Positions 861-52,891 of a DNA stretch of 57,082 nt are shown piece by piece. Positions within the stretch are counted from its first letter, which is position 1. Each line of letters opens with the position of its first letter. The position numbers and the translations under genes were made by a program. The stretch comes from Prorocentrum cordatum (Eukaryota): positions 62,001 to 119,082 of the forward strand of contig CAUYUJ010000047.1 of assembly GCA_963575745.1 (NCBI GenBank), given 5' to 3'. The notes under the pieces were generated by a model that saw only the letters and a list, made by a program, of their open reading frames with translations, did not search any database and was not told where the DNA came from.

Positions 861-3800
861 GCGCCCCGAAACTGCACCCGCTGGACCTGCTGGACGACGA
901 GGGCTCTGGCCCCTGGACGGCGCGCTCGTCCGTAGCGCCGCTGGCGGCGCAGCCGCCGGACGGCGCCCGCGGCGCCGCGCAGCTGCAGGGTGTCCTGGAG
1001 CGGCTGCAGCACCTGTCGCAGCAGCTGGGGCCGCTGGAGCAGCTGCCGCGGCAGCTGGCGGGCGTGGCCGGCAGCCAGGGGCGGCTGGAGAGGGCGCTGG
1101 GCCAGCTGCAGCAACAGCTCAGGACTCCGGCTGCACGTCAGCGCGGCCCTGCGGCGGAGTGGCCTTCTTGGCGCTGGCCCGCGGGGGTGCCCCCAGCACT
1201 GGCCCGCGCGCTCGGAGGGGGCCGCCCCGTGGCCCCCGAGGGTCGCGCACCAACGGTCGCTCTTGCCCAGGGCCGCTCCTAAGCGTGCACTCCGAGCTTC
1301 TGCAGAAGCGTCGGGGGGGCGTCGCCCCCGCCGACAGCCCCACATCGACCGGCGCGTCGCGGGCAGCCGCCGCGCGCCGAAGGCGCTCGGACCCCCGTCG
1401 CGGCGCGACGACGAGGCGAGGTGGACCCCCGTCGGGAGTGTACCCCCCCACGCTTATGAAGAAGCCCGGAGTCGCCGAAGGATGTCCTCCGCGGCGGCCG
1501 CGGCGGGGACCCGCGGCGCCGCCCCCCCGGCGAGGCGGGCGGGCGAGGACGGCACGCCCGCCGTCCCGGCGCAGACGGGCGACTGCGAGTGGGAGTTCGA
1601 CAACGACGAGCCAGGCCTCCGCGCCGGCGCCGAGCGGGCCCCCGCGCCGGACGCGGACGAGCAGGCCTCAAGCAGTGGCGAAGCGTCCCGGCTCGCCTGT
1701 AGCCCTACCAAACAGTGTCCTGAGAACCTGTTTCTGTGGTTCCCACGACATGTTCTCAGAACATGCCTGGTGGATCTTGTCTTGCTTTAACACATCGGGT
1801 TCATGTTCTAAGAACCTGGTTCTTTCTTCTTAGAACAGCTTTGGGTTCTAAGAACGTTTCGTGGTAGGACTATAGTCAGGAGGAAAAGAAACACACAGAC
1901 ACAATTAATCCTGGATTCCCCAGAAAATATGGGAAAATATGGGAAGTGGGCGGGAAGACAGAAACCCAGAAAATATGGGGAAATATGGGGCACATTTCTA
2001 TTTGTGTGTATTTATTTGTGTGTCCTGGGGCCCCTTCATATAGGAATGCCGGGGCGGCCGGTCCCTGCTCCAAGGCCAGCTGGGAGCGCACCCCGCTCAT
2101 CGGCAGGGAGGAGGGCAGCGTCCGGGGCCCGATGACCGCCCACGTGCAGGGGCGCGCTGGCCGCCCTGGCGAGGCGTCTCCGCGGCCCTCCGAGCGCGCC
2201 GAGGCGCCCGAGCTCTCGAGGGGCGCGGTCGTCGGAGGGGGGGGCCTAAAAGCGTATGTCGGGGGAGAAAAAGATACGGATACGTGTTGTCCCCCTTCGT
2301 TTTCGGCCTTTCCTGGTCCTCCTGGGGAATCCTCGTTGTCACCGCTGGATTCGCCTCGAAATTCTTGTCAGAACGCACCCCAAGAGAGGTCCGGGGACAA
2401 CACGTATCCGTATCTTTCCGCCCCCCAACTAAAAACGTATGGTGACCCCACCGTGTGACGAGTCAGTGGGGGTTCGGGTTCACCGCGCGCTCTGGGACGC
2501 GGGCCGTTCTCCGAGGGCGTCTCGGACGACGGGGGCATCCCGGGTCTCAAAACCGTGCGTTGGCGGACCGCGCGCTGCGGTCGCTGGGGATTCCGAGGTC
2601 ACCACGCGATCCGTCACCACGCGGTTTTTCTGCGGGCGAAGAACGGTATGAAATAAACTTTTCCGCCGTCTGGGACGCCTGCCCCCTAGGCGGCTGGAAA
2701 GTTTATACCCATGCGGTGCCACGTAGGGGTTGAAACTTTCTGGCCGCCCGGGGGGCAGGCGTCCTCGACGGTGGAAAAAATAATCTTACACAGTTCTTCG
2801 CCCACGAAGTTTTGGCACCTCCCAGGTCAGCCCCGGCAGGTCGCCTGCGGCGGTGAGCGCGGCGCAGGGCTCGCAAGGCAGGCGGTCGTCCGGCTCGCCG
2901 CGCTCGAGTGCCCCGTCCACGCCTTCCGACGGCCCAGCCGCAGAGGCGCCGTGGGGCCGCCAGGCCACGACGGGCGCGCGCGGGGCCGCGGTCGGCCGCA
3001 GGAAGGGCTGCGTGGAACTTTTGGCGCTCCGCGTGGGTTTCTTGGATCCGCGCTGGGGACCCCCCTGACGGCGCCTCTGGCGCCGCCTCTGGCGCGCTCC
3101 GCGCGCCAGGGAGGGGGGGTCCAGCGCCGATCCGAGAAATCCGCGCGGACCTCCGAGTGTTAATGTTCATGCTATTGTAGTGGCCTCCGGCCAGTGCCGC
3201 CGATCCGGGGCGCTCCGCAAGATGATGATCAGGATGATGCTGCAGGGGAGGGGGCAGGGGATGATGCTGCAGGGGAGGGGGCAGGGGAGGGGGTCTGCTC
3301 TGCAGGGGGAGTCCGATTGGCAGAGGGAGGAGACTGCAGGGGAGAGGGGTGCTCCGCTCTGAAGGAGGGGGGGGACCACTTGGCAGGACGACCACTGGAC
3401 GGACTGGAAGGGGGGCAGCAGGGCGAGGGGGGGGGGCCCCGTCTTCCGCTCTGCAGGGGGGGGGGCCTGCACGGAGCGGGGTCCGCTCTGCATCGGGGGG
3501 CGGGGGGGCTGGGCTGCAGGGGAGGGGGGGGGGGGGCGGGCGCTTTCCGCTTCGGAGGGGGGGGGGTCCCGCTTTTTCTTGGAGGAGGGGGGGCTGCAGA
3601 TGAGGGCGGGGGTTCTGTCTGCAGAGGGGGGGGACGAGGGAGGGCAGGGGGGAGGGGGGGTGGATCGCTCTACGGGAGGGGTGGGGGGGGGGGGGGCGCA
3701 GGAAGGAGCTCCGTTCTGCAAGGGGGGGGGTGCTCTGCAGGGGGTCGGGTGGGGGGGGCGCTTCTGCCAGTGGGGCGGGGGGGCTACAGGGGCGATGTCC

Positions 3801-4644
3801 GCTCTGCAGGGGGTGGGGGGGGGGGGAGGGGGCAGGGGGGAGCGTCCGCTTCTGCGGGGGGGGCGGATGCACGGAGCGGGGCTCCGCTCTGCAGCGGCGG
3901 GGGGGGCTGGGCTGCAGGGTAGGAGAGGGGGGGGGGGGGGCTGCGGGTCCGTTGCAGGGGAAGGGGGGTCCCGCTCATGGTAGGAGGAGGGAGCTGCAGG
4001 GAGGACGGGTGGGCTGGTCTGCAGGAGGGGGGGGAGATAGGGAGCAGGGGAGGAGAGGGGGATCCGCTCTGCAGGGGGGGTGGGGGGGGCTGCAGGGAGG
4101 AGGTCCGCTCTGCAGGGGGGGGGGGTGCTCTGCAGGGGGGGGTGGTGCAGGGGGAGGGGGGGTTCGCTCTGCAGTGGGGCGGGGGGGCTACAGGGGCGAG
4201 GTCCGCTCTGCAGGAAGGGGGGGGGGCAGGAAGCGGGAGGGGGCGTTCTGCAGGGGATGGGGGGTTCCGCTCTGGGAGGGGGGGGGGGCGAAGCACTGAA
4301 TTTGGTCGGGGGGAATTGAAGGTTCCCCCCCTCCTCCCCCCGAAGCACTGCTGAATTAGGTCGGAATGAGGTCGGGGAAAAAATGAGGTCCCCCCCTCCC
4401 CCCCGCAGAGCGAAGCTTGAGCGAGCTCAAGCCTACGCTCTCAGAAACTCACACGCCGGATCGGCGGATTTTTCGTTCCCCTAAGGAAGAGCTGCATGAA
4501 GGACGCGCCGCGAGGTCCTGACCCAGGAGCAGCGCCAGACATAGAAGCGGGTGGTGAGATGGATCGTATGCGCTCTATCGCACAGTCCCCAGTAGCTCGC
4601 AGCATCGTGCTGCGGCAGCGTCAAGATCTGGACAATGTGAAAGG
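861..4644 (+). CDS. Putative short N-terminal exons of the channel gene (approx. 861-1122, 1530-1664, 2075-2173, 2840-2945, 4486-4644)
   Basis: GC3-rich coding-like segments (LQGVLERLQHLSQQLGPLEQL; DCEWEFDNDEPG; ASWERTPLIGREEG; MDRMRSIAQSPVARSIVLRQRQDLDNVK), mostly bounded by AG acceptors and AG|GC or AG|GA donors. Phases were not fully reconciled. Confidence 0.3.
2255..2430. mobile_element. MITE with terminal inverted repeats
   Basis: AAAGATACGGATACGTGTTGTCCCC ... GGGGACAACACGTATCCGTATCTTT is a perfect inverted pair. The interior resembles 25713-25785. Confidence 0.75.
3015..3160. mobile_element. Palindromic MITE family (other copies ~32250-32380 and ~33575-33712)
   Basis: Three dispersed copies share the core CTGGCGCGCTCCGCGCGCCAGGG, flanked by inverted CGCGCGGATTT/AAATCCGCGCG-like arms. 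Confidence 0.65.
3175..4469 (-). mobile_element. Helentron/DINE-like non-autonomous element with CTGCAGGGGG tandem cargo
   Basis: Hairpin TGGCC-TCC-GGCCA (3181-3193); subTIR CCGCCGATCCGG (3197-3208) with perfect inverse CCGGATCGGCGG (4456-4467); ends GGAT|T. Confidence 0.7.
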
Positions 4645-4804
4645 CTTCGCCCTCTCCCACTGGCCGCAGCGGGAAGGGGTGGGTGGGAGGGGGCAGGATG
4701 CCAGGTATGGCGCGAGTGCATCCAGCTTGACTGCAAAATCTCTCTGCTCTCTCCCTCCCTCCCTCCCCCTCCCTCCCTCTCCCCCTCTCTCTCTCTCTCT
4801 CTCC

Positions 4805-4847
<43 letters not shown>

Positions 4848-6429
4848 TCAACGTATGTTTGTATGCGTATGCATGTGCATGTTTGTACATGCTTTAATGT
4901 GTACACAAATGTGCTTGCACAAATATATAAAGATACAGGCACACTAGTTCTACGCCTCCCGTCCTTTCTTACATCCCTGTCCCTTATTACTACTTACTCC
5001 CACTCTGGGCCTCTGCCGACCGATGGCCGCCCAATCCGGGTGGGTCCCAGCCTTCGTGCAAGAAGTCAGCGACGGGCGAGGGGCGAAGTGATAAGGAGAA
5101 GGTTTTCGCAGGAGGTGGCGGGGACTCCTCAGAGGCCCTCGCGCCTTCTGCCCGATCGTATCGCATCGTTACATCACGGCCCGAGGTTCTGCCCCTCAGA
5201 CCTGCTCTGCTCTTGCCCGTGCCCGGGGCCATCACCGATCTTCGCGGTGTGACACTGATCCCCGTCTCATTGGCCTCTTCGGTGTCCGTTCCCATCTCCT
5301 GCGCCTTCAACACAACACAAAAGCCCTCGCGCCTTCTGAGAGGTGTTGCGTCTTCCGGGAAGGCTTCTAAAACTCTTCAAAAGGGCCGGGGGACTCCCGC
5401 GCCTTCTGAGAAGACCCGCCCCTGCGCACTTCCCCACTGCGCTCGCCGCCAAAAAGACAGTACAACATCGACGATGATCGTTTCAAGATGGACGCTGTGT
5501 CGTTCATGTTGCAAAATGCGTGGCGGGGATGGAACGGGGCGCACATCCCGCGCGAAAGGCCGAAATGCCGCCCTCGCCTCGCGCCACGCACGTGTTCCTG
5601 GAGAGTCGGGCTCCCGCTGCGGCGCGGCGCAAATGTTCTGCACGCCGCCCCGTCGACGCACGAGCGGGCAAAGGCGTAGCTCTCGCTCCGGCGCCGCGCA
5701 GCATTCGCCTGCAGGTGGCGATCCCGCCCCGACGCGGCGCCGGCCTGTTGCCCGCCAGTTGGGGAGGGCCCGCGCGGGCGGGCGGCCTGTCACCCGCGCC
5801 CGAGCTCCGTGCGCACGTCGCTCGGAAGCGTGGTGTCCTGCGCGGGCGCGGCGCCTGGCTTTTGGCCGCCGGGCCGCGCGCGGGCGGCAGCGGCAGCCGG
5901 GCCGCGCGAGAGCGGGCGAAAGGCTGTCCTCCTCGCCCTCCTCCTCCTCCTCCTCCTCCTCCTCCTCCTCCTTCTCCTCCTCCTCCTCCTCCTCCTCCTG
6001 CAGTGTGTCAGTGCAGTTGGCAGTGTCGTGTCAGCGCGGCGCCTGCTGCGGCCTCGCCGCGCCCGCCTGAGGCCCCGTCCCGCCCCTGCGCGGCCCGCGT
6101 GGCGTGCCCTTTCGCCACGTCGTGGGACGCGGGGCCGCGCGCGAGGGCCTTCCTTCTGCAAGGTGGGAGCGCGCTCCGCTCCCAATGTCAAGTTGTGCCA
6201 CGAATGGTCATGATTCTTCGTATGTCGTGGGAGGACCGGCGGGAATAGAGGGGGCCCTGTGACTTGCTTGGCATGGCGAACTTGAGGATATCCCTATTCT
6301 TTTTGTTCCCGGGAAGGGCGTGGGCCCAGGGCTCTCTTTTAGTGGGTTTACCCCCGGGTCTGACGGGAAGAGGGCCGGCGGATTTCTCTTGCGATAGATA
6401 ACGAGTGGGAAGAGGGCCGGCGAATTAAA

Positions 6430-7360
6430 TTTTGAGGATGTCCCTAGCGAAACGCTTGTTTTTCAGAATTTGTTGAGGATGTCTCGAGCGAAACGCTTGT
6501 TTTGTGGTATAGATTGTCTTCTCCTGGGGACCAGCATTTAGAGGATCTCTCAAGTGAAATGCTTGGTTTCACGTGCCCAGGTCTTGAGGATGTCTCGAGC
6601 GAGACGCTTGGTTTCACGCCTCCAGGTTGCCCAGGCAGAGGTCAAGCGCCAGGATGTGTTGAGGATGTCTCGAGCGAGCCGCTTGGTTTCACGCGTCCTC
6701 GTCGCCCAGGCAGATGTCTAGCATGAGGAGGTGTTGAAAACGTCTCGAGCGAAACGCTTGTTTTCATGTGCCCAAGTCACCCAGGCGGACGTCTCAAATG
6801 AATATGTGTTGAGGATGTCTCGAGCGAACTACTTGTTTTCACGTGTGAAGTTCGCCCAGGCGGATGTCTAGCATGAGGAGGTGTTGAGGAAGTCTCGATC
6901 GAGATGCTTGTTTGCACGTGTCCAGGTTGCCCAGGCGGATGCCAAGCATGAGGATGTGTTGAGAATGTCTCGAGAGATACGCTTGTTTTCACGTGTCCAG
7001 GTCGCCCAGGCGGATGTCTAACATGAAGATGTGTTGAGGATGTCTCGAGCGAGACGTTTGCTTTCACGTGTACAGGACGCCAAGGCGGATGTCTAGAGTG
7101 AGGAGGTGTTGAAAACGTCTCGAGCGAAACGCTTGTTTTCATGTGCCCAAGTCACCCAGGCGGACGTCTCAAATGAATATGTGTTGAGGATGTCTCGAGC
7201 GAACTACTTGTTTTCACGTGTGAAGTTCGCCCAGGCGGATGTCTAGCATGAGAATGTGTTGAGGTGTTGAGCGAAACGTTTGTTTTCACGTGTCCAGGTC
7301 GCTCAGGCGGATGTCTAGAATGAGGATTTTGACAGGATGTCTCGAGCGAAACGCTTGTCC
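6430..7360. repeat. 75-bp satellite array (GAGGATGTCTCGAGCGAAACGCTTGTTTTCACG...)
   Basis: About 12 diverged units with 25-aa periodicity in ORF 6777-7142. Confidence 0.85.
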
Positions 7361-7828
7361 CCAGCACGTTCCGTAGCGCGTCCCCTTGGCACGTCCTACG
7401 GTGCGACCCCATGGCACGTCCCCTGGCACGTCGCCTGGCGCGTCCCTTGGGACGTTTCGCGGCGCGTCCTCCTGGCATGTCCCCCTGTCAATTAGCTCTG
7501 GGGCAGCTTCTATGTGTTCAGGCAGCTCGAGCTTAAGATCCAGATCAGTTCGGTCAGGACTCGGATGCAAAGGAAGACTCGATCCACGACGCCATAGAGC
7601 ACAACCGCAGCATGGCACATCGCAATTCAGCACGGTGCAGCACAGCAGAGTCCTCGGCACGGTACATCAAGATCGATACAAGCAGCATTGCACTTGCCCG
7701 TCACCCAATCAGGTGTCTTTGAAAACGCTGCCATGCGTTAAATTTCTATATTCCTTTCCGGGGTCGTGGGTCGATCATGTTTGTTTTTGTTTCTCTGTCT
7801 CTCTCTCTCTCTCTCTTTCTCTCTACTC

Positions 7829-9063
7829 TTAAGTCGGGCCTGTTCCTCTACAGGAGGAATATTCAAAAATAGTCTGGGGACGATTCTTGGATCATGTTTG
7901 ACTGTTTATGAATATCCAGAAGGGGTTCGCCCCCTGCCGCCGGCCCCCTCTATCGGAGAATGGGCAATGCAAGAGCGAAATCGTGAGGCCTTGGCGCCGC
8001 TGTGAAGCAGCGTCGGGACTTCACGCGAAGACGATGAGTAATCGGCAAGACAAATTGAGATCCTGATGATATTGTTGAATTCGGTGTTGTATTTCGAGCT
8101 TGCTCGCGTATGCTGTGCAAGAAGATTTTCCACGAAGTATTGAATTGTTGCGAATACCGTGTGTTGTTTGACCCTGACCCCACCGATCTGCGTGATGGGT
8201 GCCACCGAATTTCAAGACATGTGGCAAAACCCGTTGGTTTTTCGACCCTGACCCCGCCGATCTGCATGAGGAGTGTCACCGAATTTCAGAAATGAACAAA
8301 TCCCTTGTGTTTTTGGACCCCGACCCCGCCGATCTGCGTGAGGGGGGCCACCGAATTTCAAGACATGTGGCAAATCCCATTGGTTTTTCGACCCTGACCC
8401 CGCCGATCTGCATGAGGAGTGTCACCGAATTTCAAAAAAAAAAAAAAAAATCCTTTGTTTGTTTGGACCCTGACCCCGCCGATCTGCAAGAGGGGTGCCA
8501 CCGAATTTCAGGCATGTAGCAAATCCCTTGTGTTTTTGGACCCTGACCCCGCCGATCTGCGTGAGAGGTGTCACCGAATTTCAAAAATGTGGCAAATCCC
8601 ATGTGTCTTTAGACCCTGACCCCGCCGATCTGCGAGAGACGTGTCGCCGGATTTCAGAAATGTGGCAAATCCCTTGTTTGTTTGAACCCTGACCCTGCCG
8701 ATCTGCGTGAGGGGTGCCACCGAATTTCAGGCATGTAGCAAATCCCTTGTGTTTTTGGACCCTGACCCCGCCGATCTGCGTGAGGGGTGTCAAGTTCGAC
8801 CCCCCCTCAGAAATTTTGATGCCCCTCCTGGGAGGTGCTAACCAGGGCGGTTTTTGGCTCCCCCCCTCGCGCGGTCTACAACAAGGAACAGTAAGCAGCA
8901 AGAAGCAGAACTGTAACAGTGGAAACTAGAAACTGGAACTGGCGCAGGGAACAGCAAACCCTGAGCCTACGGCCTGGTGGCCCCACAAGGGGGCCGGTGG
9001 ATTTGTTGACTATTTTCGTTTTTCCATCCACAATCCGCCTGAAGGGGGACATGCCCGACCTAA
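7829..9063. mobile_element. MITE (TIR AAGTCGGGCNTGTYCCYCTACAGG) split by a nested element
   Basis: Left TIR at ~7830; right TIR CCTGAAGGGGGACATGCCCGACCTAA at ~9038-9063. An uninterrupted copy lies at 52892-53052. Confidence 0.7.
7907..9002 (-). mobile_element. Helentron/DINE-like element carrying a 73-bp satellite
   Basis: Hairpin AGGGG-TTCG-CCCC(C)T (7921-7935); subTIR CCGCCGGCCCCCT (7937-7949) and AGGGGGCCGGTGG (8988-9000); 73-bp array ~8165-8790. Second copy at 18210-19304. Confidence 0.75.
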
Positions 9064-10089
9064 CTCTACTCTCCGCGCTGGGGGCCGGGAAGCCTAGGCA
9101 CGCAGGAATCGGCAGAAAGCTCGAACCAGGACCCAAAAACGGGAACCCCAGCAATTGACCGCCCAACGAAGTCGTCGGCACAATCTCACCAAATATGCAT
9201 AACATTGGGAAGCCATGACCTGGACCGAGGAACCCGGAAACTTTGGGAAAGCTTGCCGTTGTCCGGCACTGGCACACAACTTACATTAAATTGTGATTAC
9301 AATATTCGTGATTTTCATGTCATTACAAACACGGATTGGGGAACGCACCATGCATCACCACGGTGTCACAAACAGCAGCATTGAGCCAGTGTGTGATTGG
9401 CATTGCCTCGTGGCATTGTCAAAGCGCACCGATATGTCAAACATTGCTTCATCATTAGAAACAGAGCCATCATGAAACATGACTGCCAATATACGCTGGT
9501 AGATGCACATTTGCAGACAGCAAAGTGTCAGAGCCAGGTATCAAAAGCATCAACCAAGGACACCTTCTGCCCAGCAATGCAATACCACCATGTGCTCAGA
9601 AATTGCTCAATAATTCACGCAGTTTTGCTTCCACGAACATCAAATTATGTTGGGACCACCCTAACACGGGCGAGCACATCGTAATTGGTTCCGAGTCACA
9701 AGTTGTGTGATGTTTGATTATGATCACAGGTCCGCATTGTACCAGACCGGCGTCCAGTAGCTTCAGTACCACCGAGAGCACACAGAAGTGAGCAAACATA
9801 AGAAAGAAAGAAAAGCGACGGACAGCAGGGATGTCAAACGTGAGGTCCCAGGAGAAGAAACAGGGCTCATGCTGGTGGGTCCCTGTGAGGCCTTCAATGG
9901 TGGTTCTGAAGACCCCTCCGGCACACCCTGGCTGAGAAAGGTCTTTGTAGCGTCGCTAGTTCCACAGCGGTGTCTTGCTACTTGCATGTTAAAAGTGACC
10001 ATAGGCATTGAAACGTGCACGCGTTCTACAGTACATACGCACGCTCGCATTCACATGCGCGCAACCAGACATTAAGTTGGTCTTCGCAG

Positions 10090-10858
10090 GCTGGTGCCCC
10101 GACAAGGTGGGCTGTCGGGTAGCAGCCATGCGCCCAGCCGCGTGAACGTTCGCAGGGCCACGACGACGACAGGGGACAGCTACACGATGTTGCCGCACCA
10201 ACGGCTGTGCCCCATGCACCCAGACCACAAACCGCGGATGATATTGGATCTCGTTTTCGTCTTTATGACGGCGTATGACTGCTGGGCGGTGCCGTACCAG
10301 ATGTCCTGGCGCGTCGAGTACACGGGGTGGTTCGCCGTGTGGACATATTTCACTTTGGTGTGGTGGACGATCGATATGTTCCTTGGGTTCTTCTTCGGGT
10401 ATTACCGCAAGAGTCGCATCGAAATGCGACTGAATAAGATTGCTTGGCGCTACTTGAGAAAAGATTTTGGCTTCAACCTGGTTGCCGTCGTCGCGGATTT
10501 CATCGTCCTCGCGATGGTGAGCCGTCGGCAGTATTTGGGGAAGGAAGGGTTCGGTCTCCAAGTGGAGAACGTTGCCAGGATATGTAAGGTCAGCCGCCTC
10601 ATCCGCATGATAACGTTGCTGTTGCAGCGCGGAGGGTTGAGCCAGTTCTACAACCGCGTGGTGAACTGGTTGCAGGAGCGCGGACTCAGTCGTCAGTTCC
10701 AAGCCTTCAACACAGTCATGCAGCTAGTCTTTCTCATCTTCTGGGTAAGTCACTTAGGTGCTTGTTTCTGGCACTACGTTGGGAGAAACGCCATCGCTAC
10801 TTGGTACACCAGTACGGAGATAGACAATGCCAGTCCAGGTTTCGATTATTTATTGTGT
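10090..10858 (+). CDS. CNBD-family (KCNH/HCN/CNG-like) cation channel, exon encoding S1-S5
   Basis: TTCGCAG|G acceptor. Motifs MHPD..PRMILDL, YDCWAVP, WWTIDMFLGFFFGYY, IAWRYLRKDF, S4-like RICKVSRLIR and S5 FWVSHLGACFWHYVG are typical of the CNBD channel ion-transport domain. Confidence 0.9.
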
Positions 10859-10981
10859 TAGCCAAGAGGCGTACGTACGCCATCCCGTCGACCCCCAGAC
10901 GAAGTGAGAATCCCTTGGACCTTGCTAGGGCGAGGTCAGGCGGGGCTTGAGTGCCGTTCGTGACGATCTGGATTTTGGGAA

Positions 10982-12488: not shown

Positions 12489-12497
12489 AGGAGACAG

Positions 12498-12611: not shown

Positions 12612-12666
<55 letters not shown>

Positions 12667-14574: not shown

Positions 14575-14579
14575 TCATC

Positions 14580-43120: not shown

Positions 43121-45620
43121 ACACAAGGCTGGGTTCTTGTTTATGAATTTGGCACCCGTCGCCCCCCCCCCTTCCCCTCCTGTGCTTCCCCTTCCTTCCC
43201 CTCCTCTCCTTCCCCTCCCCCCTTCCCCTTCCATGCTGGGGTTGTTATGACCTTCCCCTCCTCTCCTTCACCATCCCCCTACCATTAGGCCCCATCGTTG
43301 CCAGACCTCCGCAGGTCCCTCCAGCTCGGCCTTCTGGGCGACCTCCTGCGGTCCGTTGCCCGGTTGGCTTGGCGGCACTCGGGAACGTTTCATTTGTTGC
43401 GTGCCACTTGGAGGTCTCAAGGGCGTCATTTGCTTATAACAGTGGTCTGATTTGCATTGTTTCACTCGTCGCACTGATCGGGGTCGTGCGCGTTTCGCGT
43501 CTCCTTTCCCTCCTCCTCCTTCGTCACCTCCTTCCTCTCTCCCCTTCATTCTCTGTTGGCTATCCCTGCGCAACGAAAACCGGTGCTAGGAGCCCGCGCC
43601 TTTCGCACCCGCATCGTTTCCCCAGTCCTGGATTTTTGTTTCGGGCCTGGCGGGTTGCGTGAATCTGCGTGCGATCGGCTGCTCTTGAGTGGCGGATGCT
43701 ACGCGGTACTCGAGTCCGGGGCTGTTGCAAGATTTTGTTGTCACTGTCTTGCGGTCGACGTCGTGCGGGGTGTGCGCTCAGGCTAGCCCTCTTGAGGGGT
43801 AGCGGATTTCTTCCTTCCTCTCCCCTGCCTCGCTGCCGCTGGGAAGAAATAGCTTCAAGGGTGGATGGCAGCACTTGTTCAACACGTGGCCCTTGCTGTA
43901 GCGTCACGCGCATGCATGTCAAAAGTGTGCAACAGGTTCAAGATGGAGGGCAGGTCGACTGTTTAACGTGGCGCTCCCTGCAGCGCCGCGCACATTCGTT
44001 TTTCAAGTTTGGAACAGCTTCAAGGACGGAGGGCCGTTCGGTTTGAAGATGTGGCTCTCGCTTTGGCGCCGCGCAAGTTATTTCAACGTGATGCAGTTTC
44101 ATGGAGTCGTGTGGCTCAAGTCCCAGGAACGCTGTTCCAGCACGATCCAGGACTGTCAGGACGCAACAGTTGCGTTGATTCGCGGTGTTGCAGTCCCAGG
44201 ACTAGCGTTCTGGGACGATTCTGGACGGTCAGGGCGCAACAGTCGTGTTGATTCGCGGCGTTGAAATCCTAGGAATTGTGTTTCGGCACGGCCGAAGATT
44301 CTCGAGCTGTTGTCTTCCAACTGGGCACGTTCAGCAATGAAACAAACAACGCAAGGACCGATAAAGAGGGAATGTGGAGGGAGGGTGTATGACAACATTG
44401 TTGATGCGCCGTGGGTTTACATTGGTCCTCCGCCTCCTCCTCCTCCTCCTCAGACCTCCTCCTCCTCCTCCTCCTCCTCCTCCTCCTCTCCCTTGTGCTC
44501 CTCCTCTTCCTCCTCCTCCTCCTCCTCCTCCTCCTCCTCCTCCTCCTCCTCCTCCTCCTCCTCCTCCTCCTCCTCCTCCTCCTCTCCCTTATCCTCCGTG
44601 CCGGGCGACTGCCAGGGAGACCCAGGCTTCGGCGAAGCGAATGAGGCGCGTAGTTACAGGGCTGTTCGCGTGTGGCATGTTGATCACGGTTCTGCGCTGG
44701 TTCGTGTGCTACCGTTTGTTTAGATTGGTGTGGTATGGTGTTGTGCCTATGCTTACTTCGGACACGCACGCTCAAGTCGCCATCGCATGGCACTCCCTGG
44801 CACGGCCGTGGGAGCCTGGCACATGTGGCGCACGCAAGGGAAAGCAAAAGCACGGCGGCGTCGCGAGTCTGCCGGCCCCGGCGTGGGAGCCGCCTCGCGG
44901 GGGAGATGCCCCGTCTTCTCACTCGGCGTGCACCCCATCAGAGGCCGCTGGGCAAGATATCCTGGCGATGGGCCCACAGGACGTGTGAGGGGCGTGCTGG
45001 TGTCGATCACGGCAAAGATGAGGATGCCGACGATAACGACGATGCTGGTGATGATGACACACGGAAGGCAGAGGCAGGGATGGGAGGAGGGAGGAGGTTC
45101 AGCGGGAGGGAAGACAGGAGAAGCGGGGCGCCGTCTCTTCAGAACGAGGACCCAACACCACAGGACGGCTGGGAAGAAGAGAAAAAGACGTTGCTTCAGG
45201 TCCCCACGGTCTCCCCTTGCATTTCAGCCGCAGCTGGGGGAGCTGCGATCCTTACCCCTTTGGGGGCCCTTCGTCTTCGACGCGAGGGTGCAAAAAGCTC
45301 AAGGGTACAAAAAACCGAGGGTATGGAAAAAAACGGGAGTCTGACACTACCTCGGGGGTAAAACACATGTTTTTGTTCTTGACAAACAACAAAAAACCAA
45401 AAACGTCTGGGCTGGTATATACCCTCGTTGCTGTGTAGCGTCGGGTGTTTGTTTGATTCCTTCGGTTTCCCCCATCGATGGATCGAAAATACCTCGCGTT
45501 GGTTGTACACCCTTGTGGTTTCATTACATCGGTTGTTTAGTCCTTCGGTTTTGTATATCGCCTCGAGAAATGGGAATCATGTTTTTTTCTTATATCCTCG
45601 GGTTCTTTATATTGTCGGCT

Positions 45621-46563
45621 TTCCCCAACCATCCTGTGGTGTTGGGTCCTCGGTTTGAAGAGACTGCGCCTCGCGTTCTCTTTCGTCCTTCCTCCTCCCC
45701 CTCCTCCCTTCTCCCATCATCACCATCATCAGCATCATCATCATCATCCTCATCAGCATCATCATCATCGTCATCGTCATCGTCAGCGTCATCATCGTCA
45801 TCATCGTCCACGTCATCATCATCACCAGCATCATCGTCGTCATCAGCAGACTCATCATCATGGCTGTCATCATCACCATCATCGTCATCACCGCCGTCAT
45901 GGTCACCATCATCGCCGTCAGCTTCGGCGTGCTGCTTACACGCTTCGTGGCTCCATAGGGAGCTCCAGTTAAGGTCCCAGTGGCACCGTCCGCATGTGGG
46001 CGTCAGCCCCGTTTCGACACACCCCTCACACGCTTCGTGGCTCCACAGGGAGCTCCAGCTGAGGCCCCAGTGGCACCGTCCGCATGTGGGCGTCACCCCC
46101 GATTCGGCACACCCCTCACACGTTTCGTGGCCCCAAAGGGAGCTCCAGCTGAGGCCTCAGTGGCACCGTCCGCATGCGTCCGCCACGCCCATTTCGGCAC
46201 ACCCCTAATTCGTTCCGTGGCCCCAAAGGGAGCTCCACCGAAGGCCTCAGTGGCCGGGCCCGCATGCGTCGCACCACACAGTCCTGCACCCTCACACGCT
46301 GTGTGGCCCCTCAGGGAGCTCCACCGAAGCCCCGGGGCTCGCTCGCACGCAGAATCATTAACAATCAGACTCACTCGCGCTCAGACTCACCCGCGCTCGG
46401 TCTCTCGTACTCAGACCTGTCGGCTTCGTTCGCGCTGTGTACCCCGCCACGCATGTCGGCACACACCTCACATGTTTCGTGGCCTCATGGGGAGCGCCAC
46501 CGAAGACTATCTTCAGAACTGCGGTACTCACAGCTGCATATGGTTGGGTCCTTCGCCAGGCTA
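45621..46563 (+). mobile_element. Helentron/DINE-like element (CCCAACCA family) with 89-bp satellite and (CAT)n
   Basis: 5' CCCAACCATCCTGTGGTGTTGGG; 3' TGGTTGGG followed by hairpin CCT-TCGCC-AGG. Inverted homologues lie at 47783-52040. Confidence 0.65.
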
Positions 46564-46944: not shown

Positions 46945-49382
46945 GCATATACACATAGTCGCCAGGGGTGGGCCTAGGTCTCTGAGCTGTCATGAGGGCA
47001 CCTTGGCGCCTGGTGGCAAGCATCTGGACGCTTGCGGCTTCTTACATGTGCAGCCCAGAGCCGTGTGGTTTCACCATGGTTGGCTCCACGAGTTTACGCT
47101 CCAGCTGGCGTTCATCCGTAGTCGTTGTTTCACCGTCCCGGGGCCGGGGACAGGCCTCCAGAGTCCATGGTCCTCAGGACGCGTTGCAGCCGCGTGTGTG
47201 TTTATCCAGTTCAGCTCCAGGGAGAGCAAGCAGCCTGTCCTGGCGCGATCACACGTTTGCACTAACACACGTTCGAGGATCATCGACGGAGGCAGAAGAC
47301 GTCGAAAAGACAGCCGCCACGATTTTGCTGGCCTCGCTGAACCACGGACCCCTCGCGGCATCAGGGGCAACTTTAGGGGGGGATCGGCTGAGGGGGCCAT
47401 GCATCGACCCCCTTCATCGCCACCTGGTCGCCGGTGGCGGGCCTGATGGCCCTCCCCCCCACGAGCGTGGAGGAAGAGGAGGAGGAGGAGGAGCAGGAGG
47501 AGGAGGAGGAGGAGGAGGTTTTGTTTTTCGTTTGGGCCTGGAGGGGACCGTCCCCCCCTCGTCGTTCCCCCGCGGGCCCACCCACCCCCCCGCGACATCG
47601 TCATCCTGCGCGAGAGGCCCCGACCGCCTCCCTGCCGGGCTTTTTTTTCCCCGCCGCCCCGGAATCCGCTTCTGAGGCACCCCTGGGGCCTGATAGCGGG
47701 CCCTCAGTGGCCGAAGTCGAGGAGAGATTTAAGTCGCGCGCGTCCTTCTACAGGAGGAATCTTCAAAAATAACAAAAAAATAATATCCAGGCAAAGGACC
47801 CAACCATACGCGAATGTGAGAACCGCAGGACGAAGCAAGGGGAATCCCCAATGGGGACGCGAACCGTGTGAGGGGTCCGCCAAATTTGGGCGGGGCCGCC
47901 ATGCGAACCCTGCCACTGGGGCCTTCGGTGGAGCCCCCTATGAGGCCACGAACCGTGTGAGGGGTCCGCCAAAATGGAGCGGGGCCGCCATGCGAACCTT
48001 GCCACTGAGGCCTTCGGTGGAAATCCCTGTGGGGCCACGAACCGCGTGAGGGGTGCGCCACACTGGGGCTGGACCGCCATGCGAACCCTGCCACTAAAGC
48101 CTTTGGTGGAGCTCCCTATGGGGCCGCAAATCGTGTGAGGGATGCGCCAGAATGGCGCGGGGCCGCCATGCGAACCTTGCTACTGGGGCCTTCGGTGGAG
48201 CTCCCGATGGGGCCACGAACCGTTTGAGGGGTGCGCCAAAATGGAACGGTTCCTCCATGCGAACCCTGCCACTGTGGCCTTCGGTGGAGCTCACTTTGGG
48301 ACTGCGAACCGTGTGAGGGGTGCGCCAAAATTGAGCGGGGCCGCAACGCGAACCCTGCCACTAAAGCCTTTGGTGGAGCTCCCGATGGGGCCACGAACCG
48401 TGTGAGAGGTGCGCCAAAAGGACGCTGGGCCGCCATGCGAACCCTGCCACTGGGGCCTTCGGTGGAGCTCCCTGTGGGGCCACGAACCGTGTGAGGGGTG
48501 CGCCAAGATGGCGCGGGGCCGCCATGCGAACCCTGCCACTGGGGCCTTCGGTGGAGCTCCCTATGGGGCCACGAAACGCTGTGCTGGGTGGGTGAAACGC
48601 AGGGAGGAGGGGGAGGAGGGCGGAGGGGGAGGAGGAAGGAGGAAGGGGGGAGGAGGGACGCGGGGACCGTTTCTTCAAAACGAGGACTCAACACCACAGG
48701 ACGGTTGGGAATTATCTTGGAGAAGGACCCAACCAGATGCAGTTGTGAGTAACGCGTTGTGGGTGCCGCTTTCGGTGGAGCTCCATAGGTGTCCACGAAA
48801 CGCGTGGGCAACGTGCCGTAATGGGTGAGGGAGACGCATGAGGGCGGTGGGGCCTTCGGTGGGGCTCCCTATGGGCACCGAAACGCTGTACTGGGTGTGG
48901 CTGACGCGTGTGGGCGGTGCCCCTCGCTGGAGCTCCCGATGAGGCCACGAAACGTTGTATGTACGTGTTGGGGGAAACGCATGCGGGCGGTGCCGCTGAG
49001 GTTTTCCTGTGGAGCCCCCCACGGGGCCACGAAACGTTGTACTGGGCGGTGGCCGACGCATGCGGGCGGTGCCATAGGGACATTCGGTGGAGCTTCCTGT
49101 GGGGCCACGGGAGGTGGGACGCATGCGGGCGGTACCACTGGGGCCTTCGGTGGAGCTACCTATTGGCCAACGAAACGCTGTATTGGGTGGGGGGTCGCAT
49201 GTGGGCGGGCCACTGGGTCCCCCTACGGGGCCACGAAGCGCTGTACTGGGTGGGGGGGGCGCATGCGGGCGGTGCCACTGGGTTTTTCCCAACCCTCCGT
49301 GTGTTGGGTATTCGTTTTGAAAAGAGAACTGTGGTATCCACCTTCCGCCCGCTCTTCCTTCTTCTCTCCTGTGTTCGCGGTG

Positions 49383-49850
49383 CCCTGCGGGGCTGCGATC
49401 TGCGCAACTGTCGCCACTTTCGTGGGTTCCTGGGAGGCCCAGCGGAGGTACGTCATACGCAGATCATTTTGAGGCCTCCCTGTCCCCTGCGGGGCTGCGA
49501 TCTGCGCAACTGTCGCCACTTTCGTGGGTTCTTGGGGGGCCCAGCGGAGGTACGTCATACGCAGATCACTTTGGGGCCTCCCTGTCCCCTGCGGGACTGC
49601 GATCTGCGCAACTGTCGCCACGTTCCCGGGTTCCTGGGAGGCCCAGCGGAGGTACGTCATACGCAGATCATTTTGAAGCCTCCTTGTCCCCTGCGGGACT
49701 GCGATCTGCGCAACTGTCGCCACTTTCGCGGGTTCCTGGGAGGCCCAGCGGAGGTACGTCATACGCAGATCACTTTGAGGCCTCCTTTCCTGGGAGTCCC
49801 AGCGGAGGTACGTCTTACGCAGACCACTTTGAAGCCTCCCTGTCCCCTTG
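49383..49850. repeat. 102-bp tandem repeat
   Basis: About 4.5 units; 34-aa periodicity in ORF 48908. Confidence 0.9.
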
Positions 49851-50775
49851 GCGCACCTGGCGCGCACCTGGCGCGCTGGGCGCACCTGACGCACCTGACG
49901 CGCTGGGCGCACCTGGCGCGCACCCGGCGCACCTGGCGCACCTGGCGCACCTGGCGCACCTGGCGCACCTGGCGCACCTGGCGCGCACCTGGCGCGCACC
50001 TGGCGCCCACCTGGCGCGCACCTGGCGCGCACCTGGCGCGCACCTGGCGCGCTGGGCGCACCTGACGCACCTGACGCGCTGGGCGCGCACCTGGCGCACC
50101 TGGCGCACCTGGCGAACCTTGCGCATCTGGCGCACCTGGCGCACCTGCCACACCTGGCGCACCTGGCGCACCTGGCGCACCTGGCGCGCACCCGGCGCAC
50201 CTGGCGCACACCTGGCGCACACCTGGCGCACCTGGCTCCTTCGGCGCGCCTGGCGCACCTGGCGCACCTGGCGCGCCTGGCGCGCCTGGCTCGCACCTGG
50301 CGCATACCTGTCGCACCTGGCGCACCTTGCGCATCTGGCGCACCTGGGGCACCTGGCACACCTGGCGCACCAGGCGCACCTGGCGCACCTGGCGCCTGGC
50401 GCGCTAGGCGCACCTGGCGCACACCTGGCGCACACCTGGCGCACCTGGCTCACTTGGCGCGGCTGTCGCACCTGGCGCGCCTGGCGCGCCTGGCGCACCT
50501 GGCGCACCTGGCGCGCCTGGCGCACCTGGCGTACCTGGCGCATCTGGCGCACCTGGCGCACCTGGCGCGCTGGGCGCACCTGGCGCACCTGGCACACCGG
50601 GCGCACACCTGGCGCACACCTGGCGAACACTTGGCGCACCTGGCGCGCCTGGCGCATCTGGCGCACCTGGCGCGCCTGGCGCGCCTGGCGCACCTGGCGC
50701 ACGTGGCGCACCTGGCGCACCTGGCGCACCTGGCGAACCTGGCGCGCCTGGCGCGCCTGGCGCACCTGGCGCGCA
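49848..50775. repeat. 9-bp minisatellite (CCTGGCGCA)n
   Basis: Directly visible. Confidence 0.95.
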
Positions 50776-52891
50776 TGGGCTTCTGGGAGGCTCAGCGGAG
50801 GTACGTCCTACGCAGATCACTGCTATACCATGGCGCCGAAATGTCCTTCGGTATTGCGCGGTCCTGAATGCAATTGTCACTTGTGTAGAAAGGGGTTGGG
50901 TACGTCGCAGGATAATTTTCTGTGGGGCTCCCTACGGGGCCACGAAACGCTGTACTGGGTGGTGGCTGACGCATACGGGCGATCCCACTGAGACCATCGG
51001 TGGAGTTTCCCATTGGGGCCACGAAGCGCTGTACTGGATGGTGGCTGACGCATGCGGGGGGTCCCACTGGGACCTTCGGTGGAGCTCCATATGGGGCCAC
51101 GAAACGCTGTGATGGGTGGTGGTTTTCGTATGCGGGCGATACCCCTGGGGGCTTCGGTGGAGCTCCCTATGGGGCCACGAACGCTGTGCTGGGCGATGGT
51201 TGACGCATGCGGGCGGTCTCTCTGCGACCCTCGGTGGAGTTCCCTATGGGGCCACGAAACGGTTGATTGGGCGGGTGAAGCGCAGGGAGGAAGGGCTGTG
51301 CTGGGTGGTGGTTGACGCACGCGGGCGGTCTCAGTGGGACCTTCGGTGGAGTTCCCGAAGCGTTGTATTTGGTATGTGAAACGCAGGGAGGAATGGCTGT
51401 GCTGGGTGGTGGTTGACGCATGCGGGCGGTCCCACTGGGTCCTTCGGTGGAGTTCCCTATGGGGCCACGAAACGCTGTACTGGGTATGTGAAAAGCAGGG
51501 AAGAAGGGCCTTGTTGTTGGGTGGTGGTTGACGCATGTGGGCGTTCCCAATGGGACCTTCGGTGGAGTTCCCTATTCGGCCACGAAGCGCTGTACTGTGT
51601 GGGTGAAACGCAGGGAGGAAGGGCTGTGCTGGGTGGTGGTTGGTGCATGCGGGCGGTCTCACTGGGACCTTCGGTGGAGCTCCCTATGGGGCCACGAAGC
51701 GCTGTACGGGTGGGCGAAACGCAGGGAGGAAGGGCTATGCTGGGTGGTGGTTGGCGCATGCGGGCGGTCCCACTGGGACCTTCGGTGGAGCTCCCTCTGG
51801 GGCCACGAAGCGCTGTACTGTGTGGGCGAAACGCAGGGAGGAAGGGCTGTGCTGGGTGGTGGCTGGCGCATGCGGGCGGTACCACTGGGGGGGTCGGTGG
51901 AACTTCGTATGGGCCCACGAAACGCTGTACTAGGTGGGTGAAACGCAGGAAGGAGGGAGGATGGGGAGGAGCAGGGAGGAGGAGGAACGCGGGGATCGTT
52001 TCTTCAAAACGAGGACCCACCACCACAGGACGGTTGGGGAAAAATAGTCTGGGGACGATGGTTAGCCTATTTTGTGGCTGTGTTCGAATATGCTTTGACT
52101 AATTCAATTTGTCTCGCAAATCCGCCAATTGCCCTGGGGACCTTTCTCATGCCGGGTAGTTTTGTTAGAGACCATTTTCCTCTAGCTTCTGGCAAGTTTA
52201 CTTGCATGGAGGGGGAGGGGGGGGCTGGGGGGCGAGGGGGGGAAGGACAAAATCCCATGCAAGTGAACTTGCCACTAGAATTCGTTCAACATCATGGCCC
52301 CGGCCAGGGCCTCTGGAAGCCGAGCATTGGCAAACACCTCCGGGAGGGTTGCTTCGCAGCGACCTTTGCAGCCGCCGCTCGTGCTCCCTCTTCCCTCTCT
52401 TATAGTGCACCTCATGTTCGGCGGCGAGCGAGGGGAGGAAGGGAGGAGGAGGAGGAGGAAGGGAGGAGGAGGAGGAGTAAAGGAGGGAGGAGGAGAAGGA
52501 AGAGGAGGACGAGAAGCTCTCCTTCTCAGAAGGCGGCGAGACTTCTCAGAGCCCCTCGCGCCTTCGAGAAGCCGCTTGTGTCTCCAGGGAAGGCTGAGAA
52601 CACCTTTTCAGGAGGCTGGGGGACTTCCGAGCCTTCTGAGAGGGCCCACCCCTTGTCCCCTGACCTTCCAGAGTGTTCTAAATTAGCCCTCCAGACCGAT
52701 AGACCAATCTGGACTGCCTAAAACCCCGACTGGATTTTTTCGGTGTCGAGGTCCTGGTGCTATTTTTTAGCCCTCCTGGGAGGTCAGGGTCACTTCCCTC
52801 CGGGCTCGCCGCCGCTCATTCGCTGCACAGGGACTGACCTGACCGCCCGACCGACCTGTGCGGGCGCCAGGCCCGCGGACGAAAAACTACT

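What the first reader, a model, noticed from the sequence alone, without database searches (positions are those of the whole stretch)
3175..52040. Hidden superfamily of Helentron/DINE-1-like rolling-circle elements with one end grammar but unrelated cargo
Seen: at least nine elements (3175-4469, 7907-9002, 10859-13548, 10982-12488, 18210-19304, 24208-25443, 45621-46563, and two in 47783-52040) share one layout. Each has a 5' terminal motif (ATCCGCC-like, or TTCCCAACC), its inverse copy near the other end, and then a short hairpin 5-25 nt from the terminus. No TSD is evident, and insertion is at T|T where the host can be reconstructed. The paired subTIRs differ between elements but co-vary within each one (CCGCCGATCCGG, CCGCCGGCCCCCT, CGCCGCCCCCTG, CCGCCAYCGCGCT). 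Known: this is the layout of non-autonomous Helentron derivatives such as Drosophila DINE-1. Inference: a diversified HUH-mobilised family shapes this genome. I do not know of a description in dinoflagellates but cannot verify novelty.
Basis: partly seen in the sequence, partly recalled or inferred. Interest (0 to 1): 0.8.

Follow-up and report, generated by a model that had tools for sequence, protein, structure and literature searches.

The report
Helitron2-like mobile elements in a dinoflagellate
The window holds real, high-copy, non-coding mobile elements whose ends look like those of rolling-circle (Helitron2/Helentron-type) transposons, sitting inside one very long dinoflagellate gene, and two of them fill gaps in its coding sequence exactly.

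Summary
Six elements (E1 3175-4469, A1 7907-9002, E3 10861-13547, E4 10982-12488, A2 18210-19304, E6 24208-25443) share one asymmetric layout. A 12-13 nt arm with a CCGCC core lies 0-2 nt from one end inside its own hairpin. Its inverse lies 20-45 nt from the other end, followed by a GC hairpin and a short tail.

Boundaries are confirmed independently. A1/A2 and four metagenome copies stop being alike at ...GGCGGA(T). DNA contigs of the same organism pile up thousands-fold on the A and E4 ends. E3 and E6 are exactly the pieces missing from the coding sequence of a + strand ion-channel gene. Flanks are T-rich and show no clear duplication.

The three B copies (45621-52040) are a real family with a head-to-tail junction. 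Their inverted repeat is only 7 nt, and a 7-bp duplication is not excluded.

The generic grammar alone is common by chance (309 hits). No Rep-helicase lies in the window and no genome is held.

The best reading is non-autonomous Helitron2-type elements, confidence 0.55. For the CCGCC group the hairpin stands at the opposite end from canonical HLE2 relative to the T|T strand. Helitron2-like elements and 'introner elements' are already reported in dinoflagellates, so this is a new member of a known kind.

The parts
3175..4469 (-). E1. Terminal arm CCGCCGATCCGG at 4456-4467, inverse arm at 3197-3208, outer hairpin TGGCC-TCC-GGCCA at about 3181-3193, G-rich degenerate repeat core. The left end is uncertain (3175-3179).
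   Evidence: The neighbouring P-family copy ends at about 3173-3178.
5840..6383 (-). Weak tenth candidate. It ends ...GAGGGCCGGCGGA|ttt at 6383, with a partner arm of 2 mismatches about 506 nt away.
   Evidence: Not verified further.
7907..9002 (-). A1, an A-family copy. Terminal arm at 8988-9000 inside the hairpin GGCCCC/GGGGCC, inverse arm at 7937-7949, outer hairpin GGGG-TTCG-CCCC, 73-bp tandem core at 8142-8792.
9027..9063 (+). D1, a very high-copy 37-nt module holding AATCCGCC. In other copies the upstream sequence is T-rich and unlike, and the downstream sequence is variable. It is also present in RNA contigs.
   Evidence: depth 11977; loose ends at 9027 and 9063. No partner arm within 6 kb.
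10861..13547 (-). Terminal arm at 13534-13547, degenerate inverse arm at 10882-10895, outer hairpin GGCGTAC/GTACGCC at 10868-10881. It is exactly the piece missing between two coding exons. E4 is nested inside it.
10982..12488 (+). E4. Terminal arm GCGCCGCCCCCTG from 10984 inside a 7-bp hairpin, inverse arm at about 12449-12463, outer hairpin CGCC-GTA-GGCG, degenerate repeat core.
   Evidence: (depth rises from 5.7 to 1307 and then 7903 at about 10982)
18210..19304 (-). A2, the second A-family copy, with a 73-bp tandem core at 18322-19091. It lies inside a GA-AG intron.
24208..25443 (-). E6. Terminal arm at 25429-25443, inverse arm at 24229-24243, (CA)n core. Removing exactly this piece restores colinearity with homologues (SRY|LRNEF).
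45079..45175 (-). B0, a solitary B-family 5' end.
45621..46563 (+). B1. The 5' end is TTCCCCAACC with hairpin CCCAAC/GTTGGG. The 3' end has GGTTGGG, a weak stem-loop and TA. The core holds (CAT)n and a 90-bp tandem repeat. The 3' end may run to GTTAT at about 46571.
47783..48710 (-). B2, with an 89-bp tandem core. Its 5' end abuts the 3' end of B3.
48711..52040 (-). B3, with several tandem arrays as cargo. It joins B2 head to tail (...CCAAGATAA|TTCCCAACC).
848..32599 (+). Host gene, an ion-transport-domain channel. Exon matches lie at 848-1126, about 2802-3004, 4484-4636, 10120-10860, 13548-14424, 15242-15376, 20331-20465, 24031-24207, 25444-25677 and 32471-32599.
   Evidence: RNA contigs cover 10120-10860.

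Best explanation
The CCGCC-group elements (E1, A1, A2, E4, E6 and an older E3), and probably the B family, are non-autonomous elements of the Helitron2 (HLE2) kind, which includes the Helentron-derived HINE/DINE-1 elements. They sit in a dinoflagellate genome, most likely Prorocentrum or a close relative.

Shown:
- They carry only end signals.
- One end is a 12-13 nt arm (CCGCC plus a family-specific 7-8 nt) that also forms a local hairpin.
- The other end is the inverse arm, followed by a GC-rich stem-loop and a 2-20 nt tail.
- Anything can lie between the ends, such as tandem repeats, microsatellites or unrelated DNA.

Inferred mechanism:
- A Rep-helicase (HUH, Y2) transposase encoded elsewhere nicks one strand at the T-flanked end.
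- It peels off a single strand.
- It recognises the other end through the hairpin and through pairing of the two arms.
- It pastes the copy between two T's without duplicating the target.
- Read-through or end-adjacent insertion yields the head-to-tail pairs.

Relative to the T|T strand, the CCGCC group has the stem-loop at the upstream end, the 'HLE2-reverse' arrangement. B has the canonical arrangement.
For: - Asymmetric inverted repeats with both hairpins occur in six elements.
- Five of seven tested elements pass a test that only 1.3% of random boundary pairs pass.
- Boundaries were set independently of the motif. These are the A1/A2 alignments, four of six metagenome loci ending at GGCGGA(T), two of which also carry the matching left end, and the depth steps in a DNA run of the same organism.
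- E6 and E3 coincide with gaps in coding colinearity.
- The same ends enclose unrelated insides. L004, L005 and L006 are unlike the A family immediately inside the 31-nt end module, and L002 has a different tandem core.
- Head-to-tail junctions: B3 to B2 and L004, where ...GGCGGA is followed directly by the next left end.
- Flanks: tt follows the terminal arm in 6 of 6 window elements and t in 3 of 3 complete metagenome ends. The last base of the left flank is t in 4 of 6 window elements.
- Removing E6 gives CGG TAT|TTG CGC, in frame, with no duplicated bases.
- The arms differ between elements but stay complementary within each.
- The layout matches published definitions: PMC3627910, PMC4067079 and HLE2-reverse in PMC11417382.
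- Helitron-class repeats and a Helitron2-like RepHel are on record for dinoflagellates.
Against: - There is no Rep, helicase or endonuclease ORF of this kind in the window: 0 of 102 ORFs, with only a sub-threshold Exo_endo_phos hit in a LINE-like stretch.
- No autonomous partner could be sought because no genome is held.
- The generic grammar occurs 309 times in the window.
- ATCCGCC is barely enriched.
- Short T-rich direct repeats flank several copies: TTA at E3 and A2, TTT at A1, and TATTTTT at the B tandem. A 2-7 bp target duplication by a DDE enzyme is therefore not excluded.
- E3 has A, not T, on one side if the homologue-length argument is right.
- E3's hairpin end is not multi-copy.
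- The B arms are only 7 nt.
- Two of six metagenome loci (L001 and L003, the same sequence) hold the 23-nt motif but do not end there.
Confidence: 0.55

Rival explanations
1. They are MITE-like, cut-and-paste DNA transposons, the 'introner elements' already counted in Prorocentrum and other dinoflagellates. A DDE transposase mobilises them and makes a short target duplication such as TTA/TWA. The extra hairpin and tail are merely family-specific sequence outside an internalised inverted repeat.
For: - Direct repeats TTA (E3, A2), TTT (A1) and TATTTTT (B tandem) stand at the junctions.
- P. cordatum introns are reported as enriched in elements with 8-20 nt inverted repeats and 3-5 nt direct repeats, read as non-autonomous DNA transposons (PMC10666404).
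- Dinoflagellate introners with 4-nt duplications are described.
- A true palindromic MITE family (P) lies in the same window.
Against: - The inverted repeat is terminal at one end only. The 20-45 nt beyond the other arm are conserved among A1, A2 and L002 and belong to the element.
- E6 and A2 show no duplication beyond a single T.
- Direct-repeat length is inconsistent, from 1 to 7 nt.
- Head-to-tail junctions lack spacers.
Confidence: 0.2
2. The shared layout is mainly an RNA feature, not a transposition signal. The arms and hairpins would bring the two ends of non-canonical introns together for removal from pre-mRNA, as proposed for Amoebophrya introners. Elements outside coding gaps would be decayed or dispersed copies.
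For: - E3 and E6 are exactly the pieces missing from the coding sequence.
- RNA contigs of three runs end at 10860 and start at 10120, with no AG or GT/GC/GA pattern that keeps the frame. All 8 in-frame AG acceptors examined run into stops.
- Non-canonical introns with inverted and direct repeats are known in Amoebophrya (PMC7789003).
Against: - A1, A2, E1 and E4 lie inside larger introns with ordinary GA/GC-AG ends, or nested in E3, and are not introns themselves.
- Metagenome copies are flanked by (AT)n and other non-genic DNA.
- Thousands-fold depth points to spread as DNA.
- The RNA may come from an allele or strain that lacks the insertions.
- This reading does not exclude the main one.
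Confidence: 0.1
3. There is no single superfamily. The A family, and perhaps the E4 family, are real repeats. The likeness of E1, E3, E6 and B to them is what short GC-rich inverted repeats and hairpins give by chance in 60% G+C, repeat-rich DNA.
For: - 309 chance-level hits to the generic grammar.
- 1.3% of random boundary pairs pass the asymmetric inverted-repeat test.
- E3's arm is degenerate and its end is single-copy.
- The B arm is 7 nt.
Against: - E6's boundaries come from protein colinearity alone, yet it shows the full layout with a CCGCC arm 0-2 nt from the end.
- All six elements have tt after the terminal arm and the same order of parts.
- B has four aligned 5' ends and three aligned 3' ends.
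Confidence: 0.15

Closest known systems
Helitron2 / HLE2 non-autonomous elements, including Helentron-derived HINEs and Drosophila DINE-1
   Same: - Arms of 12-15 nt, one 0-4 nt from an end and the other 20-60 nt from the other end.
- A stem-loop between the subterminal arm and the terminus.
- A hairpin formed by the terminal arm with its neighbours.
- A core of microsatellite or tandem repeats.
- T-rich insertion sites without clear duplication.
- Far more non-autonomous than autonomous copies (definitions read).
   Different: - For the CCGCC group the stem-loop end lies upstream on the strand where the flanks read T|T, the reverse of the canonical order.
- No RepHel or endonuclease partner was seen.
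- The ends are GC-rich with a CCGCC core.
- Two copies sit exactly in gaps of a coding sequence.
'HLE2-reverse' (FoHeli3-5 of Fusarium oxysporum) and proto-Helentron of Phytophthora
   Same: [quoted passage not shown]
   Different: - Those are 9-11 kb autonomous fungal or oomycete elements with other end sequences (TGCCT...CTCCTGT).
- No insertion preference could be set for them.
- The elements here are 1-3 kb and non-coding.
Introner elements of dinoflagellates (Amoebophrya, Polarella, Symbiodinium, Prorocentrum cordatum)
   Same: Repeated intronic elements with 8-20 nt inverted repeats near both intron ends. In Amoebophrya the splice boundaries are non-canonical.
   Different: - Published definitions ask for 3-5 nt direct repeats and read the elements as TIR or MITE-like.
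- Here the repeat is asymmetric and direct repeats are 1-3 nt or absent.
- Most copies are not introns by themselves.
Helitron2-like autonomous element of Symbiodinium microadriaticum (Heringer and Kuhn 2021)
   Same: A dinoflagellate host, a Helitron2-type structure and no endonuclease domain (passages read).
   Different: That report is of a RepHel-encoding element.

Membership tests
Helitron2 / HLE2 (incl. Helentron, HINE, DINE-1) | Short asymmetric terminal inverted repeats: one arm 0-4 nt from one end, the other 20-60 nt from the other end. | tested here: met
   E1, A1, A2, E4 and E6 meet it at 1 mismatch or fewer in 12 nt, E3 at 2, and B1 not at 12 nt (7-nt arms only). L002 and L004 carry both arms.
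Helitron2 / HLE2 (incl. Helentron, HINE, DINE-1) | A stem-loop between the subterminal arm and the terminus, and a hairpin formed by the terminal arm. | tested here: met
   DNA folds of both ends. Clear in E1, A1, A2, E3 and E4. The outer hairpin is weak in E6 and B.
Helitron2 / HLE2 (incl. Helentron, HINE, DINE-1) | Insertion between T and T without target duplication, in the orientation terminal arm to stem-loop. | tested here: inconclusive
   T flanks are present. E6's site is exact and unduplicated. For the CCGCC group the T|T strand is the one on which the stem-loop comes first. Direct repeats of 1-3 nt occur, and 7 nt at the B tandem.
Helitron2 / HLE2 (incl. Helentron, HINE, DINE-1) | Multi-copy, with copy boundaries at the terminal motifs. 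| tested here: met
Helitron2 / HLE2 (incl. Helentron, HINE, DINE-1) | An autonomous partner encoding Rep-helicase (plus an AP endonuclease for Helentron) with the same ends. | not testable with these tools
   No genome is held. None found among 102 window ORFs. The metagenome contigs are too short.
TIR-type MITE (e.g. PIF/Harbinger Tourist-like) | Inverted repeats terminal at both ends. | tested here: not met
   The second arm lies 20-45 nt inside, and the outer stretch is conserved among copies.
TIR-type MITE (e.g. PIF/Harbinger Tourist-like) | Target site duplication of fixed length. | tested here: inconclusive
   TTA at E3 and A2, TTT at A1, T only at E6 and E4, TATTTTT at the B tandem.
Introner element (definition of Farhat 2021 and Dougan 2023) | An intron with an 8-20 nt inverted repeat and a 3-5 nt direct repeat within 30 nt of each end. 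| tested here: inconclusive
   E3: inverted repeat and TTA present, left boundary seen in RNA contigs, right boundary inferred from homologues. E6: inverted repeat present, direct repeat 1 nt, intron status inferred from colinearity only.

The most novel reading that the evidence does not exclude
In this free-living dinoflagellate, Helitron2-type elements would act as introners of a new sort. After landing in an exon they would be removed from the pre-mRNA at or within 1-2 nt of their own termini. No GY-AG boundaries would be used. The paired arms and hairpins would bring the exon ends together. This would link rolling-circle transposition to the non-canonical introns so far known from parasitic Amoebophrya.
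Probability: 0.2. Interest if true: 0.8.

Novelty: new member of a known kind. Interest (0 to 1): 0.5.

Why it matters
About 46% of the repeats in the P. cordatum assembly are unclassified, and its 'introner elements' have no assigned mechanism. If the abundant CCGCC-ended elements are Helitron2-type, that would do three things:
- It would name a major unclassified repeat class of a bloom-forming dinoflagellate.
- It would give a search rule for them, namely the two end modules.
- It would supply a mechanism for very long introns, dispersed satellite-like arrays and possibly intron gain.

The two copies that exactly fill coding gaps make a concrete test of non-canonical intron removal possible in a free-living dinoflagellate.

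Tried and rejected
- The whole-genome search was not possible because no genome is held.
- Earlier findings of this scan were empty by place, by sequence and by words.
- Rfam found no family in the window.
- A Pfam scan of 102 ORFs found no Rep or helicase.
- The bare motif counts and the generic structural scan were too unspecific, so I dropped them as evidence of significance.
- I looked for partner arms at 14 trial start positions around nine further ATCCGCC-type sites. None was convincing except a weak one at 6383.
- I looked for a canonical GC/GT-AG reading of the E3 gap. All 8 in-frame AG acceptors between 13000 and 13560 hit stop codons. For E6 a GT-AG alternative (24204-25430) stays in frame but adds four residues (AMAG) in place of the Y that homologues keep, a net gain of three, so it is not excluded.
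- I could not fix the splice sites of the 14425-15241 intron.
- Two protein searches for the window's own product across the junctions found only paralogues at 33-74% identity.
- In the read laying no joint was reported. The stretch ended at 11140, so the far side of E3 was not covered. Bins without cover say nothing.
- L001 and L003 were left out of the end alignment because they do not end at the motif.


Full report
SETTING

The window is 51-70% G+C and full of microsatellites and tandem arrays. It carries a perfect relic of the dinoflagellate spliced leader at 25940-25960 (the identity of that motif is recalled). No genome is held for it.

A coding exon at 10120-10860 has its best named relative in Prorocentrum cordatum, at 58% identity. 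I therefore take the organism to be Prorocentrum or a near relative. This is an inference, and the G+C content fits the 59.7% reported in PMC10666404.

By tblastn with two homologues, one + strand ion-transport-domain gene runs from about 848 to 32599 in at least ten exon blocks.

THE OBSERVATION

I printed both ends of all listed elements and put the six with a CCGCC-type arm in one register. Read with the hairpin end on the left, each runs in this order:
- flank
- a tail of 2-20 nt
- a GC-rich hairpin
- 2-3 nt
- the arm CCGCC plus 7-8 nt
- cargo
- the inverse arm, ending ...GGCGGA (GGCGGGC in E6, GGCGCA in E4)
- a flank beginning tt

The tt flank is seen in 6 of 6.

The arms are CCGCCGATCCGG (E1), CCGCCGGCCCCCT (A1, A2), GCGCCGCCCCCTG (E4) and CCGCCAYCGCGCT (E6), with a degenerate pair in E3.

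DNA folding finds a hairpin over the terminal arm and a second one outside the subterminal arm in all six. Arm-to-arm duplex energies run from -12.9 to -22.4 kcal/mol.

The three B copies share TTCCCCAACC, which forms CCCAAC/GTTGGG, at one end. At the other end they share GGTTGGG plus a weak stem-loop. The repeat is only 7 nt.

IS IT MORE THAN CHANCE?

The motif alone is not. ATCCGCC occurs 19 times against 10.8 expected, and six of those lie in one tandem array. GGCGGATT occurs 7 times against 2.7 expected.

A generic scan for a 12-nt inverted repeat (at most 1 mismatch, 300-5000 nt apart) with both hairpins passes 309 times among 3794 inverted-repeat pairs.

What carries weight is that boundaries fixed without reference to the motif show the layout:
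- With random boundary pairs the asymmetric 12-nt repeat appears in 759 of 60000 cases, 1.3%. E1, A1, A2, E4 and E6 have it, E3 only at 2 mismatches, and B1 does not.
- A1 and A2 are 82-84% alike over their whole length. They lose likeness just after ...GGYGGAT and just before TATG.
- A scan of metagenome contigs with 23 nt of the A end returned six loci.
  - L004, L005 and L006 end at ...GGCCGGCGGAT and then differ completely.
  - L002 ends two or three bases earlier in a T run.
  - L001 and L003 are one and the same sequence and do not end there.
  - L002 and L004 also have the left end, with the hairpin and the arm CCGCCGGCCCCCT.
- Inside the 31-nt end module, L004, L005 and L006 are unlike the A family and unlike each other. 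L002 has a different tandem core. So 'same ends, unrelated cargo' holds.
- Contigs of a DNA run that matches unique parts of the window without a difference (depth about 3) sum to 7000-12000 over 8872-9108. They rise from 5.7 (10847-10925) to 1307 and then 7903 from about 10982 on. The tool warns that these sums are not copy numbers, but the steps place high-copy boundaries at the A1 end and the E4 start.
- E3's own hairpin end is not multi-copy.

THE CODING GAPS

RNA contigs of three runs cover 10120-10860 with 0-2 differences and then run on into other sequence.

Homologues continue ...FDYLLSYYWSVS (P0003, 74% identity) where the window reads FDYLLC at 10858 and YWSVS from 13549. None of the 8 in-frame AG acceptors between 13000 and 13560 gives an open frame. 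Exon 2 starting at 13548 gives YYWSVS, and starting at 13551 gives YWSVS.

The missing piece is therefore 10861-13547, or 10859-13548 if one Y is dropped. That is E3 to within two bases, and it has no GY-AG pair.

Likewise SRY at 24207 and LRNEF from 25444 are colinear with SRYARNEF of P0002 only if 24208-25443, exactly E6, is taken out. That leaves CGG TAT|TTG CGC with nothing duplicated. A GT-AG alternative (24204-25430) stays in frame but puts AMAG in place of the Y that homologues keep.

The exon start at 10120 also lacks an AG.

Other introns are ordinary for dinoflagellates. The 15377-20336 intron is GA-AG and holds A2. The 20466-24030 intron is GC-AG. The roughly 3005-4483 intron is GA-AG and holds E1 and a P-family element (and my reading).

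I cannot tell whether E3 and E6 are removed from RNA or are absent from the DNA that gave the RNA. The laid stretch stopped at 11140 and no joint was reported.

TARGET SITES

For the CCGCC group:
- The base after ...GGCGGA is T in 6 of 6 window copies and 3 of 3 complete metagenome ends.
- The base before the left end is T in A1, A2, E4, E6 and L002. It is A in E1 and E3 as I placed them.
- Direct repeats at the junctions are TTA (E3, A2), TTT (A1), TT (E1) and T (E4, E6). A 2-3 bp duplication cannot be excluded for some. E6 shows none.

For the B family:
- The B3-B2 tandem sits in a copy of another repeat (C). An uninterrupted C copy at 7820-7900 shows the site ACTATTTTTGAA.
- TATTTTT stands at both junctions.
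- This is either a 7-bp duplication or an insertion into a T run. The second applies if the element ends at GTTAT, as the B1 end hints.

HOW IT MOST LIKELY WORKS

The layout is that of Helitron2 as defined by Bao and Jurka (passages read):
- a 5' arm 0-2 bp from the end that pairs with its neighbours in a 5' hairpin
- a 3' arm 20-30 bp from the end, just upstream of a hairpin

It is also that of Helentron-derived HINEs and DINE-1 (passages read):
- 12-15 bp subterminal repeats, 2-4 nt from one end and 38-60 nt from the other
- a palindrome near the far end
- central microsatellites or tandem repeats
- T-rich targets with no target change

HLE2 elements insert between T and T. On the strand where our flanks read T...T, the CCGCC group has its stem-loop first. 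That is the arrangement HELIANO's authors call HLE2-reverse and liken to proto-Helentron. The B family has the canonical order.

Head-to-tail junctions without spacer are what rolling-circle read-through or end-adjacent insertion gives, as discussed for FoHeli and Metarhizium. Here they are B3 to B2, and in L004 ...GGCGGA followed at once by the next left end.

I therefore commit to trans-mobilised, single-strand, HUH-type transposition. The shown steps are the end anatomy, the copy boundaries, the T flanks, the shared ends with unrelated cargo and the tandem junctions. The enzyme, the nick site and the strand are inferred.

WHAT ARGUES AGAINST

No Rep-helicase was found. None of 102 ORFs hit one, and three sub-threshold Pfam hits were unrelated. 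No autonomous partner could be sought. Short T-rich repeats at the junctions leave room for a DDE enzyme. E3 and B fit less well. Lumping B with the CCGCC group rests on layout only.

COMPARISON WITH PRINT

[quoted passage not shown] It says helitron repeats make up 1.2% of the assembly and 46% of repeats are unclassified. Its main text never mentions Helitron.
- PMC8788227 (passages) reports a Helitron2-like RepHel element in Symbiodinium microadriaticum.
- PMC12130899 (passages) finds helitron-derived introners in about 1% of classified cases, with a fungus as the example, and does not mention Prorocentrum.
- PMC7789003 (passages) describes non-canonical introns with inverted and direct repeats in Amoebophrya.
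- Searches for Helitron with dinoflagellate, Prorocentrum or Symbiodinium and for Prorocentrum genome, intron and transposable turned up no description of these CCGCC-ended families.
- I did not see the published Current Biology version of the dinoflagellate introner paper (only passages of the 2020 preprint), the Mobile DNA III Helitron chapter (recalled), or the large supplements of the P. cordatum paper. Any of these may bear on novelty.

VERDICT

- The kind is known, including in dinoflagellates.
- The families, their reversed polarity and their exact fit to two coding gaps are new details.
- Interest 0.5.

Noticed in passing
window 848-32599 (+): One ion-transport-domain channel gene spans at least 32 kb in about ten exon blocks. 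Its introns hold most of the listed elements.
   Followed up: partly
window 10119/10120 and 10860/10861: RNA contigs of three runs start and end an exon here. Neither boundary has an AG or a GT/GC/GA that keeps the frame, which suggests non-canonical introns or insert-free alleles.
   Followed up: partly
window 25940-25960 (+): A perfect 21-nt dinoflagellate spliced-leader relic lies inside an intron of the channel gene and is followed by a long ORF (25946-27043). This looks like a retroposed copy.
   Followed up: no
window 9027-9063 (+): A 37-nt module containing AATCCGCC has the highest summed depth of the laid stretch. It occurs in RNA contigs of several runs with differing flanks. Upstream of it other copies are T-rich. 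No partner arm lies within 6 kb.
   Followed up: partly
window 3016-3173, 32234-32393, 33565-33731: A palindromic, MITE-like family of about 150 bp (P) with ...CATAAACATAAAC/GTTTATGTTTATG-type ends. One copy abuts E1.
   Followed up: partly
window 2999-3016 and 4484-4501: An 18-nt direct repeat AGGAAG(G/A)GCTGC(G/A)TG(G/A)A stands at both ends of the intron that holds P and E1. Both copies read as the same codons of the channel protein.
   Followed up: no
window 7846-7906 plus 9003-9026, and 47745-47782 plus 52041-52118: A further repeat (C) with a T-rich tail has been hit by A1 in one copy and by the B3-B2 tandem in the other. This suggests a T-rich hot spot for insertion.
   Followed up: partly
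window 27120-31800 (+): A run of broken ORFs with a sub-threshold endonuclease/exonuclease/phosphatase match (17.1 bits against a cut-off of 24.5). This is probably a decayed LINE.
   Followed up: no
window 2634-2803, 16994-17367, 17505-17713, 53331-53399: Long imperfect palindromes (self-inverse BLAST matches of 69-394 nt) of unknown nature.
   Followed up: no
L004:140-180: In a metagenome contig an element end ...GGCGGA is followed at once by the left end of the next element, a head-to-tail pair outside the window's organism or locus.
   Followed up: partly
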